Of a stretch of DNA of 24,000 bases, positions 17,265-17,757 are shown in pieces. Each line of letters begins with the position of its first letter. Position 1 is the stretch's first letter. The notes under the pieces were generated by a model. That model made no database searches. It saw nothing but the letters and a program-made list of their open reading frames with translations, and was not told the DNA's origin. A program made the position numbers and the translations under genes. Source of the DNA: Sediminibacterium sp. (lineage in GTDB: Bacteria > Bacteroidota > Bacteroidia > B-17B0 > Aurantibacillaceae); the NCBI GenBank assembly GCA_030054095.1, contig JASGCO010000010.1, forward strand, positions 102,865 through 126,864, in the 5' to 3' direction.

Positions 17265-17416
17265 TTGAATGAGCAAAAAGCGGGTGGCCTTTCTTTCCAT
17301 TTGTTCTGCCTTTTGAACTACATGACAATGTGTTGTTTTAAAGTTGTCGTGGTGGGACTCGAACCCACATTTAATGGTTAACCATCGAAGTAATGCCAGC
17401 CTACGGCATCATTCAA
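17265..17416 (-). ncRNA. Y-RNA-like domain b: 8-bp terminal stem enclosing a hairpin and a permuted tRNA-like core (17297..17377)
   Basis: Core CCATT-AAAT-[GTGGG-TTCGAGT-CCCAC]-[CACGACAA-15 nt loop-TTGTCATG]-TA-[GTTC-AAAAGGCA-GAAC]-A-AATGG. Terminal stem TTGAATGA(17409-17416)/TCATTCAA(17265-17272). Extra hairpin ATGCC-GTAGGCT-GGCAT. The 3' end lies 3 nt from the tRNA-Lys 5' end. Confidence 0.6.
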
Positions 17417-17423
17417 ATAACAT

Positions 17424-17563
17424 AAACAGGTTAAGAACGGATAAACGCTTATTTTGTGCTCTAACCAACTGAGCTACACGTTAACCCTTAATAGGATTAA
17501 AAGTGGATGGGCTCGAACCACCGACCGCAAAAGCCGAAGTAAGTTTATTCTACGACACTGTTT
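17424..17563 (-). ncRNA. Y-RNA-like domain a: bulged long stem plus a permuted tRNA-like core (17452..17532)
   Basis: AAACAG-(9 nt)-ATAAAC-(8 nt)-GC-TTTTG-CGGTC-[GGTGG-TTCGAGC-CCATC]-[CAC..TTAATCC-TATTAA-GGGTTAA..GTG]-TA-[GCTC-AGTTGGTTA-GAGC]-A-CAAAA-TAA-GC-GTTTAT-(11 nt)-CTGTTT. The stems pair as AAACAG/CTGTTT, ATAAAC/GTTTAT and TTTTG/CAAAA. Confidence 0.6.
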
Positions 17564-17649
17564 AATAGGTATAAGAAGCAAAAGCAGGCGAAAGGAATAA
17601 GACACGTTCATTATCAGCGAAGTAAGTCTTATAAACGGCACTGCGTTTG

Positions 17650-17757
17650 TTTGAAAAGCAAGGGTAACGTATGTGTTTCCATCTCTGAATACAGAGAGGA
17701 TAAGGAGTCGAACCTTAATATTTGCCAGAAGTAACACACGTTTACGGCATTTTCAAA
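17650..17757 (-). ncRNA. Y-RNA-like domain d (108 nt): long bulged stem topped by a T arm and closed acceptor-like hairpin, with no D arm
   Basis: TTTGAAAA-TGCC-GTAAACGTGTGTT-ACTTCTGGCAAATAT-[TAAGG-TTCGACT-CCTTA]-[TCCTCTCTG-TATT-CAGAGATGGA]-AACACATACGTTAC-CCTTGC-TTTTCAAA. The outer 8-bp and inner ~12-bp stems are separated by an internal loop. Confidence 0.5.

What the first reader, a model, noticed from the sequence alone, without database searches (positions are those of the whole stretch)
17265..17757. Three further Y-RNA-like domains (d, a, b), each a long bulged stem capped by a tRNA mimic, immediately downstream of rsr
- Domains a (17424-17563) and b (17265-17416) have 81-nt permuted tRNA-like cores. 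In each, a 5-bp helix (TTTTG/CAAAA, CCATT/AATGG) replaces the anticodon stem with correct tRNA spacing.
- Each core is extended by outer stems separated by internal loops or bulges (a: ATAAAC/GTTTAT and AACAG-type AAACAG/CTGTTT; b: TTGAATGA/TCATTCAA).
- Domain d (17650-17757, 108 nt) is a rod of about 20 bp with an internal loop, capped only by a T arm and a closed acceptor helix, with no D arm.
- A terminal bulged stem plus a tRNA-like effector module is what is known for Ro60-bound YrlA RNAs, and rsr sits 0.4-0.9 kb upstream on the same strand.
- The D arms fall into two types: GCTCAGTTGG(A/T)TAGAGC in a and B, and GTTCAAA(A)GG(C/T)AGAAC in b and A. This suggests duplication of a two-module cassette.
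- Five modules at one locus is more than the one to four Y RNAs I am aware of at bacterial rsr loci.
Basis: partly seen in the sequence, partly recalled or inferred. Interest (0 to 1): 0.85.

Follow-up and report, generated by a model that had tools for sequence, protein, structure and literature searches.

The report
Bacteroidota Y RNA gene array
The three flagged stretches are real genes for small tRNA-mimicking "Y RNAs", the partners of the Ro60-like protein encoded just upstream, and they belong to a head-to-tail array of nine such modules that is typical of this bacterial phylum but escapes standard annotation.

Summary

- **Strand and position:** all features lie on the minus strand, 0.4-0.9 kb downstream of rsr (TROVE + Ro60 vWA).
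- **Scores:** a covariance model built only from 66 modules of other Bacteroidota rsr loci scores domain a at 101.6 bits, b at 92.9 and d at 42.3. Rfam's YrlA model gives a and b only 28 and 26 bits against a threshold of 69.
- **Structure:** the closing stems, T arm, closed acceptor hairpin and D arm all covary. 95.7% of cells are paired, against 72% when shuffled and 39-52% when partners are slid. The tRNA Levitt pair covaries too.
- **Shared signature:** every module begins with GYCGU(A/R)-N-WACUUC(G), a variant of YrlA's GNCGAA...YUAY Ro60-binding strand. It occurs 7 times here against 0.03 expected.
- **Module count:** there are seven stem-bearing modules (e, d, c, a, b, f, g), the A/B cores and a genuine tRNA-Lys, packed 0-16 nt apart.
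- **Phylum-wide:** the same model finds 290 matches in 70 related loci, all on the rsr strand.
- **Link to Rsr:** the signature co-occurs with Rsr (Fisher p = 7e-15) and not with neighbouring genes.

This is a new lineage variant of a known kind. Expression and Rsr binding remain untested.

The parts
17422..17565 (-). Y RNA module a (144 nt). Parts in order: outer stem, bulged U, GU:AC pair, CGUAG loop, inner stem, UUACUUCG, 5-bp helix UUUUG/CAAAA at the anticodon-stem position, 5-nt variable loop, T arm, closed acceptor hairpin, D arm.
   Evidence: Model R1, built without window sequences, scores it 101.6 bits, E 2.3e-23, full length. Rfam YrlA gives 28.1 bits, E 0.002. G15:C48 Levitt pair.
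17265..17416 (-). Y RNA module b (152 nt). Same architecture as a, with the rarer GUUC/GAAC D stem, a 4-nt variable loop, the helix CCAUU/AAUGG and a bulged C in the inner stem. It ends 3 nt before tRNA-Lys.
   Evidence: R1 scores it 92.9 bits, E 3.1e-21, full length. Rfam YrlA gives 26.1 bits. A15:U48, the compensatory form of the Levitt pair.
17650..17757 (-). Y RNA module d (108 nt). Same closing stems and 5' signature as a and b, capped by a T arm plus a directly stacked closed acceptor-like hairpin. It has no D arm, so it is a minihelix mimic.
   Evidence: R1 scores it 42.3 bits, E 7e-9, end-to-end with the D arm deleted. MFE z = -4.3. The same architecture occurs at L005:2104-2205, L014:5209-5306 and L027:6036-6139.
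17774..17900 (-). Y RNA module e (127 nt), first of the array. It carries the signature GUCGUGAGUACAGGAUACUUCG and a divergent head with a T-arm-like AAGG-UGCAAAU-CCUU.
   Evidence: Signature match. R1 with filters off scores it 22.0 bits, E 5e-5, full length. This is the weakest of the seven modules.
17580..17648 (-). Y RNA module c (69 nt). A short hairpin type whose apical stem-loop has an anticodon-loop-like 7-nt loop, CUGAUAA.
   Evidence: Signature match. R1 scores it 27.8 bits, or 36.1 bits with filters off. Loop seen.
17188..17261 (-). Genuine tRNA-Lys(UUU) embedded in the array, 3 nt after module b and 2 nt before module f.
   Evidence: Rfam tRNA 67 bits. ARAGORN.
17112..17185 (-). 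Y RNA module f (74 nt), short hairpin type.
   Evidence: R1 scores it 55.7 bits, E 4e-12. MFE z = -3.4.
17045..17111 (-). Y RNA module g (67 nt), short hairpin type, with the apical 7-nt loop CUGCAAA.
   Evidence: Signature match. R1 scores it 16.8 bits, or 22.8 bits with filters off.
16737..16868 (-). Tandem tRNA-like cores A (16803-16868) and B (16737-16800). Each is a T arm, closed acceptor hairpin and D arm, without the canonical 5' signature. They may share one closing stem.
   Evidence: R1 scores them 36.8 and 44.7 bits, core positions only. Rfam YrlA gives 40.6 and 40.0 bits. The closing stem is read by eye only.
18180..19697 (-). rsr, encoding a Ro60 ortholog of 505 aa, the presumed protein partner.
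   Evidence: Pfam TROVE at 9.6e-31 plus a below-threshold match to the Ro60 vWA domain (25.1 bits, cut-off 27.7). Full-length match to PDB 9L5Y/9KOP, a TROVE protein, at 2.5e-30.
17952..18142 (-). Conserved 191-nt tRNA-like RNA between rsr and the Y array. It has a 7-bp acceptor stem, D arm, T arm and a structured insert of about 105 nt. It is probably the 'band 7-associated tRNA'.
   Evidence: nhmmer finds it in 11 of 70 loci. 32 of 44 predicted pairs show compensatory changes. No Rfam match. Context.
19866..19886 (.). Palindrome CTGCGCA-N7-TGCGCAG in the rsr/WYL divergent promoter region, a candidate operator for the WYL regulator.
   Evidence: The same palindrome is found in at least 25 loci; in the rsr loci listed, where rsr starts at 4001, it sits at about 3915-3935, 65-85 nt upstream.
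19936..20955 (+). Divergent WYL/WCX-domain regulator.
   Evidence: Pfam. A homolog lies divergent from rsr in 41 of 70 loci.

Best explanation
Domains d, a and b are three genes of a head-to-tail array of Bacteroidota-type Y RNAs, the noncoding RNA partners of the Ro60 ortholog Rsr encoded immediately upstream.

Each module has two parts.

1. A basal Rsr-binding module:
- a 6-8 bp outer stem;
- a bulged U;
- a 2-bp GY:RC clamp;
- an asymmetric internal loop whose 5' strand is CGUA(R);
- an inner stem of about 8 bp, followed by (W)UACUUCG.

2. A variable head:
- in a and b, a circularly permuted tRNA mimic (T arm, closed acceptor hairpin, D arm, Levitt pair), as in YrlA;
- in d, only the T arm and acceptor minihelix;
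- in c, f and g, a small hairpin.

Proposed mechanism (inferred, not shown):
- The array is transcribed together with the embedded tRNA-Lys, probably from the WYL-controlled rsr promoter.
- It is cut into individual RNAs of 67-152 nt by tRNA-processing enzymes.
- Each RNA binds the outer surface of the Rsr ring through its conserved 5' strand.
- The different heads tether Rsr to different partners, such as tRNA-elbow-binding enzymes or exonucleases like PNPase, or gate its cavity, as part of an inducible RNA quality-control and repair operon.
For: Shown here:
1. Position and strand. All seven signature-bearing modules lie within 1.2 kb downstream of rsr on its strand.
2. Family recognition. 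Model R1, built only from other loci, scores a at 101.6 bits, b at 92.9 and d at 42.3. It finds 290 matches at E <= 1e-4 in 70 Bacteroidota rsr loci covering 612 kb on both strands, every one on the rsr strand.
3. Structure. On a sequence-based MAFFT alignment of 68 modules, RNAalifold recovers the outer stem, GY:RC clamp, inner stem, T arm, acceptor hairpin and D arm, and 28 of 32 pairs show compensatory changes.
4. Controls. 95.7% of cells are paired, against 72.1% when shuffled (0 of 500 shuffles reach it) and 39-52% when partners are slid. The covariation score is 0.657, against 0.208 and about 0.12.
5. The clamp pair is C:G in 33 sequences, U:A in 31 and U:G in 3.
6. tRNA tertiary logic. 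The 15:48 Levitt pair is G:C in 59, A:U in 8 and other in 1. Domain a has G:C and domain b has A:U.
7. Closing stems across all module types. Cognate 5' strands pair with their own downstream sequence at 14.7 of 17 positions, against 12.3 for swapped strands. A score of 15 or more is reached by 52% against 2%.
8. Link to Rsr. Among 123 loci chosen independently of Rsr, the signature co-occurs with Rsr: 16 both, 5 signature only (all contigs of 2.2 kb or less), 1 Rsr only, 101 neither, Fisher p = 7e-15. There is no association with SPFH, WYL or S24 genes.
9. Packing. Gaps between successive modules and the tRNA are 16, 1, 14, 5, 3, 2 and 0 nt, which leaves no room for separate promoters. The median gap across loci is 10 nt.

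From the literature:
- The signature G-Y-C-G-U-A matches the published YrlA motif GNCGAA at 5 of 6 positions, and UUAC matches YUAY (PMC4201824).
- Ro60 contacts mainly the 5' strand of the Y RNA stem (PMC4201824; bioRxiv 10.1101/312249).
- D. radiodurans co-transcribes Yrn2, tRNA-Asp and Yrn1.
Against: - There is no expression, end-mapping or Rsr-binding data for any of these RNAs.
- Rfam's curated YrlA model gives a and b only 28.1 and 26.1 bits against a gathering score of 69. No Bacteroidota module tested exceeded 48 bits.
- The signature has an invariant U where YrlA has A, so binding in the YrlA manner is an inference.
- Single-sequence folding of a and b is no better than shuffles, and the MFE structures differ from the comparative one.
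- In b, a local hairpin AUGG/CCAU competes with the CCAUU/AAUGG helix.
- Family-wide, the helix at the anticodon-stem position is usually only 2-3 bp: 3.14 of 5 pairs against 1.92 in the swap control.
- A strong hairpin followed by U4 lies directly after the rsr stop codon (18151-18176). It could terminate transcription, so co-transcription with rsr is uncertain.
- No recognisable sigma-70 or TAnnTTTG promoter was found.
- The 3' boundaries of modules were chosen by a pairing search. This biases the two closing helices slightly. The T arm, acceptor hairpin and D arm are not affected.
Confidence: 0.8

Rival explanations
1. The array works as one long multivalent RNA rather than as separate Y RNAs. 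An unprocessed 1-1.5 kb transcript would carry 7-9 Rsr-binding stems and assemble several Rsr rings side by side as a scaffold or storage particle.
For: Modules abut with 0-16 nt spacers and no detectable promoters or terminators between them. Module order is similar between the window and L002: about 127 nt, about 100-108 nt, further modules, about 140 nt, about 150 nt, tRNA-Lys, about 75 nt, about 75 nt.
Against: A genuine tRNA-Lys sits inside the array, so it must be excised by RNase P and a 3' processing enzyme, which cuts the transcript. Known polycistronic Y RNA precursors in D. radiodurans and M. smegmatis are processed to unit-length RNAs (PMC4201824). Each module closes on its own 5'/3' stem.
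Confidence: 0.08
2. The tRNA-like heads act mainly as decoys or competitive inhibitors of tRNA-targeting nucleases or other tRNA-binding toxins. Rsr would serve only to stabilise them, rather than the RNAs serving to tether Rsr to effectors.
For: The operon and its relatives carry embedded or adjacent tRNA genes, namely Lys-UUU, Gln, Glu, Arg-ACG, Tyr, His, Asn and Asp. From my own knowledge, these are the classic targets of anticodon nucleases. An RNA ligase gene lies at 22999-24000. Anticodon-loop-like 7-nt loops (YU-NNN-RN) occur in 43 of 255 modules against 9.2 in shuffles. The decoy idea was raised for Salmonella YrlA in PMC7790460.
Against: Domains a, b and d have no anticodon loop at all. 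The helix at the anticodon-stem position opens into the Rsr-binding stem instead. Only 17% of modules carry an anticodon-like loop. The most conserved parts of all modules are the Rsr-side signature and the tRNA elbow, not an anticodon mimic.
Confidence: 0.08
3. The domains are decaying tRNA genes, or artefacts of adjacent tRNAs in which the T arm of one and the D arm of the next resemble a permuted tRNA. They would have no function of their own.
For: YrlA-type models do give false positives at tRNA-tRNA junctions. Here R1 hits 22019-22075 and 22404-22459 in the tRNA array, and Chen et al. discarded such hits. Y RNAs are thought to derive from dimeric tRNAs (bioRxiv 10.1101/312249).
Against: Neither ARAGORN nor Rfam finds flanking tRNA halves at a, b or d. 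The matches are full length and include closing stems that tRNA junctions lack. Covariation is extensive, with 28 of 32 pairs compensated. A 21-nt signature of fixed spacing is kept in 259 of 269 instances across the phylum. This is purifying selection, not decay.
Confidence: 0.02
4. The region encodes a small protein (ORF 17474-17737, minus strand, 87 aa), or it is a cis-acting 3' UTR or terminator element of rsr.
For: An 87-aa ORF with a GTG start overlaps d, c and a. A strong hairpin follows the rsr stop codon.
Against: The ORF has no Pfam match. Its only tblastn matches in 70 related loci are short fragments with E >= 0.002, and they coincide with the conserved RNA motifs. The conserved units are 70-150-nt self-closing structures repeated 2-8 times per locus, sometimes upstream of rsr or kilobases away.
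Confidence: 0.02

Closest known systems
YrlA (Y RNA-like A; Rfam RF02553) of Salmonella Typhimurium, Mycobacterium smegmatis and more than 250 other bacteria and phages (Chen et al. 2014, PMC4201824; tRNA-like domain structure PDB 6CU1, bioRxiv 10.1101/312249)
   Same: - It is encoded within a few kb of rsr on the same strand.
- The 5' and 3' ends form a bulged stem whose 5' strand carries the conserved motif.
- The head is a circularly permuted tRNA: variable loop, T arm, closed acceptor stem-loop, UA, D arm, and a helix at the anticodon-stem position.
- The Levitt pair covaries between G:C and A:U.
- A YUAY element lies between the stem and the head.
   Different: - The signature is GYCGUA(R)-N7-WUACUUCG with fixed 21-nt spacing, not GNCGAAN0-1G. 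The U replacing A is invariant.
- Both strands of the closing stems and a GY:RC clamp covary, whereas only the 5' strand is recognisable in Salmonella and M. smegmatis.
- Scores against Rfam's model are 26-48 bits against a gathering score of 69.
- These modules occur as 2-8 or more copies per locus rather than one YrlA plus one YrlB.
YrlB (Salmonella, M. smegmatis) and Yrn2 (D. radiodurans), the second, non-tRNA-like Y RNAs
   Same: Modules c, f and g are long hairpins with a small apical loop, like YrlB and Yrn2. Module d carries a T arm but no D arm, as reported for M. smegmatis YrlB.
   Different: Here there are at least four such RNAs in one locus. They share the same 5' signature as the tRNA-like ones. 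Module d also has a closed acceptor helix stacked on the T arm.
D. radiodurans rsr locus (Yrn2 - tRNA-Asp - Yrn1 polycistron, plus small RNAs a, b and d)
   Same: Several small RNAs next to rsr are co-transcribed with a genuine tRNA and processed. This is the precedent for a mixed Y RNA and tRNA operon and for more than two rsr-linked RNAs.
   Different: The D. radiodurans RNAs lie upstream of rsr. They keep the metazoan-type helix, have the opposite tRNA permutation, and only two qualify as Y RNAs. Here seven modules share one signature.
Metazoan Y RNAs (hY1, hY3, hY4, hY5)
   Same: They form a small family of paralogous RNAs that share a Ro60-binding stem and differ in the effector loop. Ro60 reads mainly the 5' strand, GGUCCGA.
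   Different: They have no tRNA-like domain, are separate Pol III genes, and number two to four per genome.
[quoted passage not shown]
   Same: It is a tRNA-like ncRNA encoded next to a Band-7/SPFH protein in RNA-repair contexts, occasionally next to Rsr. The 191-nt RNA at 17952-18142 has exactly this context.
   Different: This comparison concerns the neighbouring RNA, not d, a or b. The RNA here has open ends with a 7-bp acceptor stem and an insert of about 105 nt. I could not check its equivalence with the published b7a-tRNA because that paper is not held.

Membership tests
YrlA (Chen et al. 2014; Rfam RF02553) | Encoded within about 4 kb of a TROVE-domain Ro60 ortholog, on the same strand | tested here: met
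   rsr is at 18180-19697 (-) and d, a and b are at 17265-17757 (-). All 290 family matches in 70 loci are on the rsr strand.
YrlA (Chen et al. 2014; Rfam RF02553) | GNCGAAN0-1G motif near the 5' end, the presumed Ro60 contact | tested here: not met
   The modules have G-Y-C-G-U-A/R (a: GUCGUAG, b: GCCGUAG, d: GCCGUAA). This matches 5 of 6 positions, but a U invariably replaces the first A in the modules collected. It is a lineage-specific variant of the motif, not the motif as defined.
YrlA (Chen et al. 2014; Rfam RF02553) | Conserved T arm and D arm with tRNA-invariant nucleotides, separated by a closed acceptor-like stem-loop (permuted tRNA) | tested here: met
   Met for a and b: the T loop is UUCGAGY, the D loop has GG, and UA precedes the D stem. 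Domain d has the T arm and closed acceptor hairpin but no D arm, so d does not meet this feature.
YrlA (Chen et al. 2014; Rfam RF02553) | Levitt pair 15:48 maintained by compensatory change (G:C or A:U) | tested here: met
   On alignment A1 the pair is C:G in 59, U:A in 8 and other in 1, with 0 of 500 shuffles reaching it. Domain a has G15:C48 and domain b has A15:U48.
YrlA (Chen et al. 2014; Rfam RF02553) | Score at or above Rfam's gathering threshold (69 bits) | tested here: not met
   a scores 28.1, b 26.1, A 40.6 and B 40.0 bits. The best module in six other Bacteroidota loci scores 47.7 bits.
YrlA (Chen et al. 2014; Rfam RF02553) | Bound by Rsr in vivo and modified by TruB and DusA | not testable with these tools
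   This needs immunoprecipitation and modification mapping.
Y RNA in the broad sense (Ro60-associated ncRNA) | About 70-150 nt, with the 5' and 3' ends paired into a long bulged stem that holds the Ro60 site, plus a variable loop or head | tested here: met
   The closing stems covary: helices 1 and 2 are 96.4% and 95.0% paired, and 16 of 17 pairs have changes on both sides. The swap test covers all module types. The 3' boundaries were chosen by a pairing search, so there is a slight bias.
Y RNA in the broad sense (Ro60-associated ncRNA) | Genomic co-occurrence with Ro60 | tested here: met
   In 123 loci chosen independently of Rsr, the signature co-occurs with Rsr at Fisher p = 7e-15 and is not associated with SPFH, WYL or S24 genes.
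Canonical tRNA gene | Open acceptor stem, anticodon arm, and detection by tRNA finders | tested here: not met
   ARAGORN finds no tRNA at d, a or b. The only Rfam tRNA match there (32.8 bits, 17344-17483) joins the D arm of a to the T arm of b across an 82-nt gap. The acceptor helix is closed by a loop and there is no anticodon loop.

The most novel reading that the evidence does not exclude
Bacteroidota Rsr may not work with one or two Y RNAs. Instead it may use a genetically encoded library of seven or more adaptor RNAs that share one Rsr-docking stem and carry different heads.
- The heads would be a full tRNA mimic, an acceptor/T minihelix, an anticodon-stem-loop-like hairpin and a dimeric tRNA core.
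- Each head would programme the same ring for a different partner or substrate.
- The library would be co-transcribed with genuine tRNAs, a 191-nt tRNA-like RNA and a Band-7 protein.
- The whole unit would sit under a WYL-domain sensor as an inducible tRNA-damage response.

Conserved module classes and order across genera would then reflect non-redundant functions.
Probability: 0.3. Interest if true: 0.8.

Novelty: new variant of a known kind. Interest (0 to 1): 0.6.

Why it matters
- **Open questions:** bacterial Y RNAs have been studied in three species, each with about two Y RNAs. What the tRNA-like head binds, and why Ro60 needs several Y RNAs, is still unknown.
- **A natural comparative experiment:** this locus and about 70 relatives show that a whole phylum carries arrays of up to eight or nine distinct Y RNAs. 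All have a sharply defined docking signature, covariation-supported structures and graded heads (full tRNA mimic, minihelix, plain hairpin).
- **Annotation gap:** these RNAs fall below Rfam's YrlA threshold, so they are invisible to standard annotation. In the public record of this contig, an ORF is called across modules A and B. The model built here could annotate them across genomes.
- **Medical interest:** Bacteroidota include gut commensals whose Ro60 has been discussed as a trigger of anti-Ro autoimmunity, so their Ro60 RNPs matter beyond RNA biology.
- **Testable regulation:** the WYL regulator and its conserved palindrome give a concrete handle on when the system is switched on.

Tried and rejected
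- **Rfam at gathering thresholds** found only tRNAs in the window. The YrlA signal appears only at E-value thresholds.
- **Single-sequence folding** of a and b was uninformative: z = -0.57 and -1.08, with MFE structures that break the T and D arms.
- **My first motif pattern** used the wrong spacer (N11 or N12 instead of N10) and found nothing. It was corrected.
- **BLASTN of individual modules** against the 70 loci found almost nothing for d, b, c, e and g. Orthology therefore cannot be traced by sequence. Module classes are recognisable only by architecture.
- **Promoter searches** found no sigma-70-like site and no Bacteroidota -7 motif TAnnTTTG on either strand. I make no promoter claim.
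- **The terminator scan** returned only T arms and D arms as false positives.
- **Protein-coding readings** of ORFs 17474-17737 and 16480-16965 were rejected.
- **The duplicated two-module cassette idea** was rejected. The a/B similarity is the family-consensus D arm, and the order of D-arm types is inverted.
- **R1's hits inside the tRNA array** (22019-22075, 22404-22459) are tRNA-junction artefacts.
- **Literature access:** the supplementary tables of Chen et al. 2014 and the Burroughs and Aravind 2016 paper are not held. I could not check how many Bacteroidetes YrlA candidates were already listed, or compare the 191-nt RNA with the published b7a-tRNA.
- **Literature searches** found no description of Bacteroidota Y RNA arrays in the held library.
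Full report
**1. Locus.** All relevant features are on the minus strand.
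- The ORF at 18180-19697 encodes a 505-aa protein. It matches the TROVE domain (E 9.6e-31) and, below Pfam's cut-off (25.1 against 27.7 bits), the Ro60 vWA domain. It also matches a solved TROVE-protein structure over its full length. This is rsr.
- The next protein gene on that strand, an SPFH/Band-7 protein, starts at 16332. That leaves 1.85 kb with no credible ORF. The 87-aa and 161-aa ORFs there have no Pfam match and no conservation.
- A genuine tRNA-Lys(UUU) lies at 17188-17261.
- The window is part of a 43-kb contig from a public sequencing run. The nearest Rsr proteins, at up to 70% identity, are from Chitinophaga and other Bacteroidota.
- The rest of the window holds ordinary chromosomal genes: ABC/MacB transporters, an SDR and a GNAT.

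- Both tRNA-like cores are 81 nt by direct count.
- Rfam's YrlA model is the best non-tRNA match: 28.1 bits for a and 26.1 for b, both aligned end to end. The cores A and B score 40.6 and 40.0. All are below the 69-bit gathering score.
- Domain d folds into the described rod with a T arm and a directly stacked closed hairpin (z = -4.3).
- Domains a and b do not fold convincingly on their own.

**3. A shared signature shows seven modules, not three.** Aligning the sequence upstream of each TACTTC showed that seven sites share (R)U-GYCGU(A/R)-N-(W)UACUUC(G) with identical spacing.
- The pattern GYCGT-N10-WACTTC occurs 7 times in the window, all on the minus strand between 17086 and 17891. Shuffles give 0.03.
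- Each site is flanked by an outer stem and an inner stem that close a unit of 67-152 nt.
- In transcript order the units are:

| Unit | Coordinates |
|---|---|
| e | 17774-17900 |
| d | 17650-17757 |
| c | 17580-17648 |
| a | 17422-17565 |
| b | 17265-17416 |
| tRNA-Lys | 17188-17261 |
| f | 17112-17185 |
| g | 17045-17111 |

- The gaps between successive units are 16, 1, 14, 5, 3, 2 and 0 nt.

**4. The signature resembles the known Ro60-binding strand.** Chen et al. (PMC4201824) defined two conserved elements in YrlA.
- One is GNCGAAN0-1G near the 5' end, which resembles the GGUCCGA contacted by Xenopus Ro60.
- The other is a YUAY just before the tRNA-like domain.
- Here the elements are G-Y-C-G-U-A and (U/A)UAC. 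That is the same order and similar spacing, with one invariant difference (U for A).
- The architecture matches the Rfam YrlA consensus helix for helix: P1, internal loop, P2, YUAY, P3, variable loop, T arm, closed acceptor, D arm, P3'.

**5. Comparative evidence.** Seventy Bacteroidota rsr loci were fetched.
- A loose version of the signature occurs 269 times. In 259 of these the span is exactly 21 nt. The hits lie almost exclusively on the rsr strand, usually just downstream of rsr, at 2-8 per locus with a period of about 130-150 nt.
- In a swap test, cognate 5' strands pair with their own downstream sequence far better than strands borrowed from other modules. The scores are 14.7 against 12.3 of 17, and 52% against 2% reach 15 or more.
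- Sixty-eight tRNA-like modules were aligned by MAFFT on sequence alone. RNAalifold predicted 32 pairs, 28 of them with compensatory changes.
- The counts on that alignment are:

| Measure | Observed | Shuffled | Partners slid |
|---|---|---|---|
| Cells paired | 95.7% | 72.1% (0 of 500 reach it) | 39-52% |
| Covariation score | 0.657 | 0.208 | about 0.12 |

- The GY of the signature pairs with RC at the 3' side: C:G in 33, U:A in 31, U:G in 3.
- The Levitt tertiary pair covaries: C48:G15 in 59, U48:A15 in 8, other in 1. Domain a has the G:C form and domain b the A:U form.
- The helix at the anticodon-stem position is supported in the correct tRNA register only: 3.14 of 5 pairs against 1.92 in the swap control. 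It is usually 2-3 bp. Domains a and b have the full 5 bp.

**6. Independent model.** Covariance model R1 was built from the 66 non-window modules.
- Scores in the window:

| Module | Bits | Note |
|---|---|---|
| a | 101.6 | E 2e-23 |
| b | 92.9 | E 3e-21 |
| f | 55.7 | |
| B | 44.7 | core positions only |
| d | 42.3 | E 7e-9; end to end, D arm deleted |
| A | 36.8 | core positions only |
| c | 27.8 / 36.1 | default / filters off |
| g | 16.8 / 22.8 | default / filters off |
| e | 22.0 | filters off |

- Across the 70 loci R1 finds 290 matches at E <= 1e-4. Every one is on the rsr strand and nearly all are full length. That is about four per locus and up to eight.
- Rfam's YrlA model reaches only 31-48 bits on the same loci, so these RNAs go unannotated.

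**7. The domain d type.** The T arm plus closed acceptor hairpin without a D arm recurs with the same closing stems in Flavipsychrobacter (L005:2104-2205, L014:5209-5306) and Segetibacter (L027:6036-6139). T-arm-only Y RNAs have a precedent in M. smegmatis YrlB.

**8. The signature tracks Rsr.** A separate set of 123 loci was collected through a different RNA (see paragraph 10), without reference to Rsr.
- The signature and Rsr co-occur: 16 both, 5 signature only (all on contigs of 2.2 kb or less), 1 Rsr only, 101 neither. Fisher p = 7e-15.
- There is no association with the SPFH, WYL or S24 genes that are common in those loci.

**9. Mechanism.**
- *Shown:* gene position, signature, covarying structure, tRNA-like tertiary logic, tight packing with a real tRNA, and co-occurrence with Rsr.
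- *Inferred from the D. radiodurans, Salmonella and M. smegmatis systems* (PMC4201824; bioRxiv 10.1101/312249):
  - Each RNA docks on Rsr through the 5' strand of its basal stem.
  - The head recruits or mimics something. For a and b this would be a tRNA-elbow-binding factor. For d it would be an enzyme that reads the acceptor/T minihelix.
  - The units are released from a polycistronic precursor by tRNA-processing enzymes, as for Yrn2 - tRNA-Asp - Yrn1.
- *Uncertain:* whether transcription comes from the rsr promoter. A strong hairpin followed by U4 lies directly after the stop codon (18151-18176), and no promoter motif was found.

**10. Wider context.**
- Between rsr and module e lies a 191-nt RNA (17952-18142).
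  - It has a 7-bp acceptor stem, D arm, T arm, an anticodon-like arm with an oversized loop, and a structured insert of about 105 nt.
  - It is 77-85% identical in 11 of the 70 loci, and 32 of 44 pairs are compensated.
  - It has no Rfam match.
  - A pattern from it matches at least 120 metagenome stretches and 3 viral contigs.
  - There it typically sits between a divergent WYL regulator and an SPFH/Band-7 gene, mostly without rsr.
  - This fits the 'band 7-associated tRNA' predicted by Burroughs and Aravind, as described in bioRxiv 10.1101/312249. I could not read the original paper.
- A WYL homolog is divergent from rsr in 41 of 70 loci.
- The palindrome CTGCGCA-N7-TGCGCAG occurs in at least 25 loci; in the rsr loci listed it sits about 65-85 nt upstream of the rsr start. 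In the window it is at 19866-19886.
- The minus-strand series looks like one WYL-controlled RNA quality-control and repair operon. It runs rsr, tRNA-like RNA, Y array with tRNA-Lys, SPFH, tRNA-Thr, S24 peptidase, RNase T-like exonuclease.
- A tRNA array and an RNA ligase lie beyond the regulator.

**11. Comparison with what is known, and novelty.**
- Functionally and architecturally, a and b are YrlA-like and d is YrlB-like.
- They are not members of Rfam RF02553 as curated. They fail the threshold, and the motif differs at one invariant position.
- Several rsr-linked small RNAs and a co-transcribed tRNA are known from D. radiodurans.
- The following appear in none of the papers I could search:
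  - arrays of seven to nine modules sharing one signature;
  - recurring head types;
  - frequent interleaving with tRNA genes;
  - a phylum-wide distribution.
- The supplementary tables of Chen et al. 2014 may already list some Bacteroidetes YrlA candidates.

**12. Verdict.** This is a new lineage variant of a known kind, of moderate to good interest (0.6).

Noticed in passing
window 17952-18142 (-): A conserved 191-nt tRNA-like RNA with open ends. It has a 7-bp acceptor stem (GGCUCUG/CAGGGCC + A, no CCA encoded), D arm, T arm, an anticodon-like arm with a 13-18-nt loop, and a structured insert of about 105 nt. It has no Rfam match. It occurs in 11 of 70 rsr loci and in at least 120 metagenome stretches, usually between a divergent WYL regulator and an SPFH/Band-7 gene and mostly without rsr. 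It is probably the predicted 'band 7-associated tRNA'.
   Followed up: partly
window 17774-17900, 17580-17648, 17112-17185, 17045-17111 (-): Four further Y RNA modules (e, c, f, g) carry the same 5' signature and closing stems as d, a and b. The locus therefore has seven stem-bearing modules plus A and B.
   Followed up: yes
window 16737-16868 (-), flanks about 16700-16900: The tRNA-like cores A and B sit in tandem without the canonical signature. They seem to share one closing stem (GUC-CUCC...UUGUGG with CCACAA...GGAG-AA-GAC, read by eye) with a possibly degenerate motif, CCGAUGUACUACC. A's D arm and B's T arm could also form an elbow. Apart from one tRNA-junction hit (L027:6967-7050), none of the 290 matches in the other loci was core-only.
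   Followed up: partly
window 17188-17261 (-); L001, L002, L003, L027, L038, L039, L053, L054, L062, L065: Genuine tRNA genes are embedded in or abut the Y RNA arrays on the rsr strand, with 0-5 nt spacers. The recurrent set is Lys-UUU, Pro-UGG, Phe, Gln-UUG, Arg-ACG, Tyr, His, Asn, Glu and Trp. The window also has a 10-tRNA array at 21092-22932 (-) next to an RNA ligase at 22999-24000 (-).
   Followed up: partly
window 19866-19886: The palindrome CTGCGCAGATAGATTGCGCAG lies between rsr and the divergent WYL regulator. CTGCGCA-N7-TGCGCAG recurs in at least 25 loci; in the rsr loci listed it sits about 65-85 nt upstream of the rsr start. It is a candidate WYL operator.
   Followed up: partly
window 13738-19697 (-): An uninterrupted same-strand series runs rsr, ncRNAs, SPFH/Band-7 (the N-terminal 270 aa have no Pfam match), tRNA-Thr, S24 peptidase, RNase T-like exonuclease. 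Metagenome locus L172 has the same gene set in the same order. It is likely one operon.
   Followed up: partly
window 18151-18176 (-): A GC-rich hairpin (CCCCGCCG/CGGCGGGG) followed by UUUU starts 4 nt after the rsr stop codon. The tRNA-like RNA begins only 4 nt beyond the U tract. It could be a terminator, an attenuator, or a protective 3' end left after RNase P cleavage. The simple terminator scan did not report it.
   Followed up: no
window 17021-17042 and 17932-17953: A 22-nt direct repeat (minus-strand reading ..CGTTCTTTTACATATTG, 91% identical) follows the tRNA-like RNA and again follows module g. L002 has CGTTCTTT at the equivalent place. Its function is unknown; it could be a trailer, terminator or processing site.
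   Followed up: no
window 16905-17030 (-): A stretch between module g and A/B folds better than shuffles (z = -2.84) into a rod of about 75 nt plus two hairpins. It has no signature and no BLASTN homolog in the 70 loci.
   Followed up: no
window 17580-17648 and 17045-17111 (-); 43 of 255 modules in all loci: The hairpin right after UACUUC often has a 7-nt loop with the universal anticodon-loop pattern YU-NNN-RN. Module c has CUGAUAA and module g has CUGCAAA; elsewhere CUUUUAA occurs 9 times and CUGUCAC 4 times. The count is 43 modules against 9.2 in shuffles. This is either a remnant of tRNA ancestry or an anticodon-stem-loop mimic.
   Followed up: partly
window 16480-16965 (+) = L071:5733-6218: The public annotation of this contig calls a 161-aa gene on the strand opposite to A and B. 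It has no Pfam match and no conservation, and its 'GFEP' peptides are the translated reverse complement of T arms. It is almost certainly spurious.
   Followed up: yes
L002:6093-6175 (-): A near-threshold match to Rfam Flavo-1 RNA (39.4 bits against a gathering score of 42) lies on the opposite strand inside the Y RNA array region of a related locus.
   Followed up: no
L145 (2194-nt metagenome contig): This contig has nine copies of the Y RNA signature on one strand within 2.2 kb, the densest array seen.
   Followed up: no
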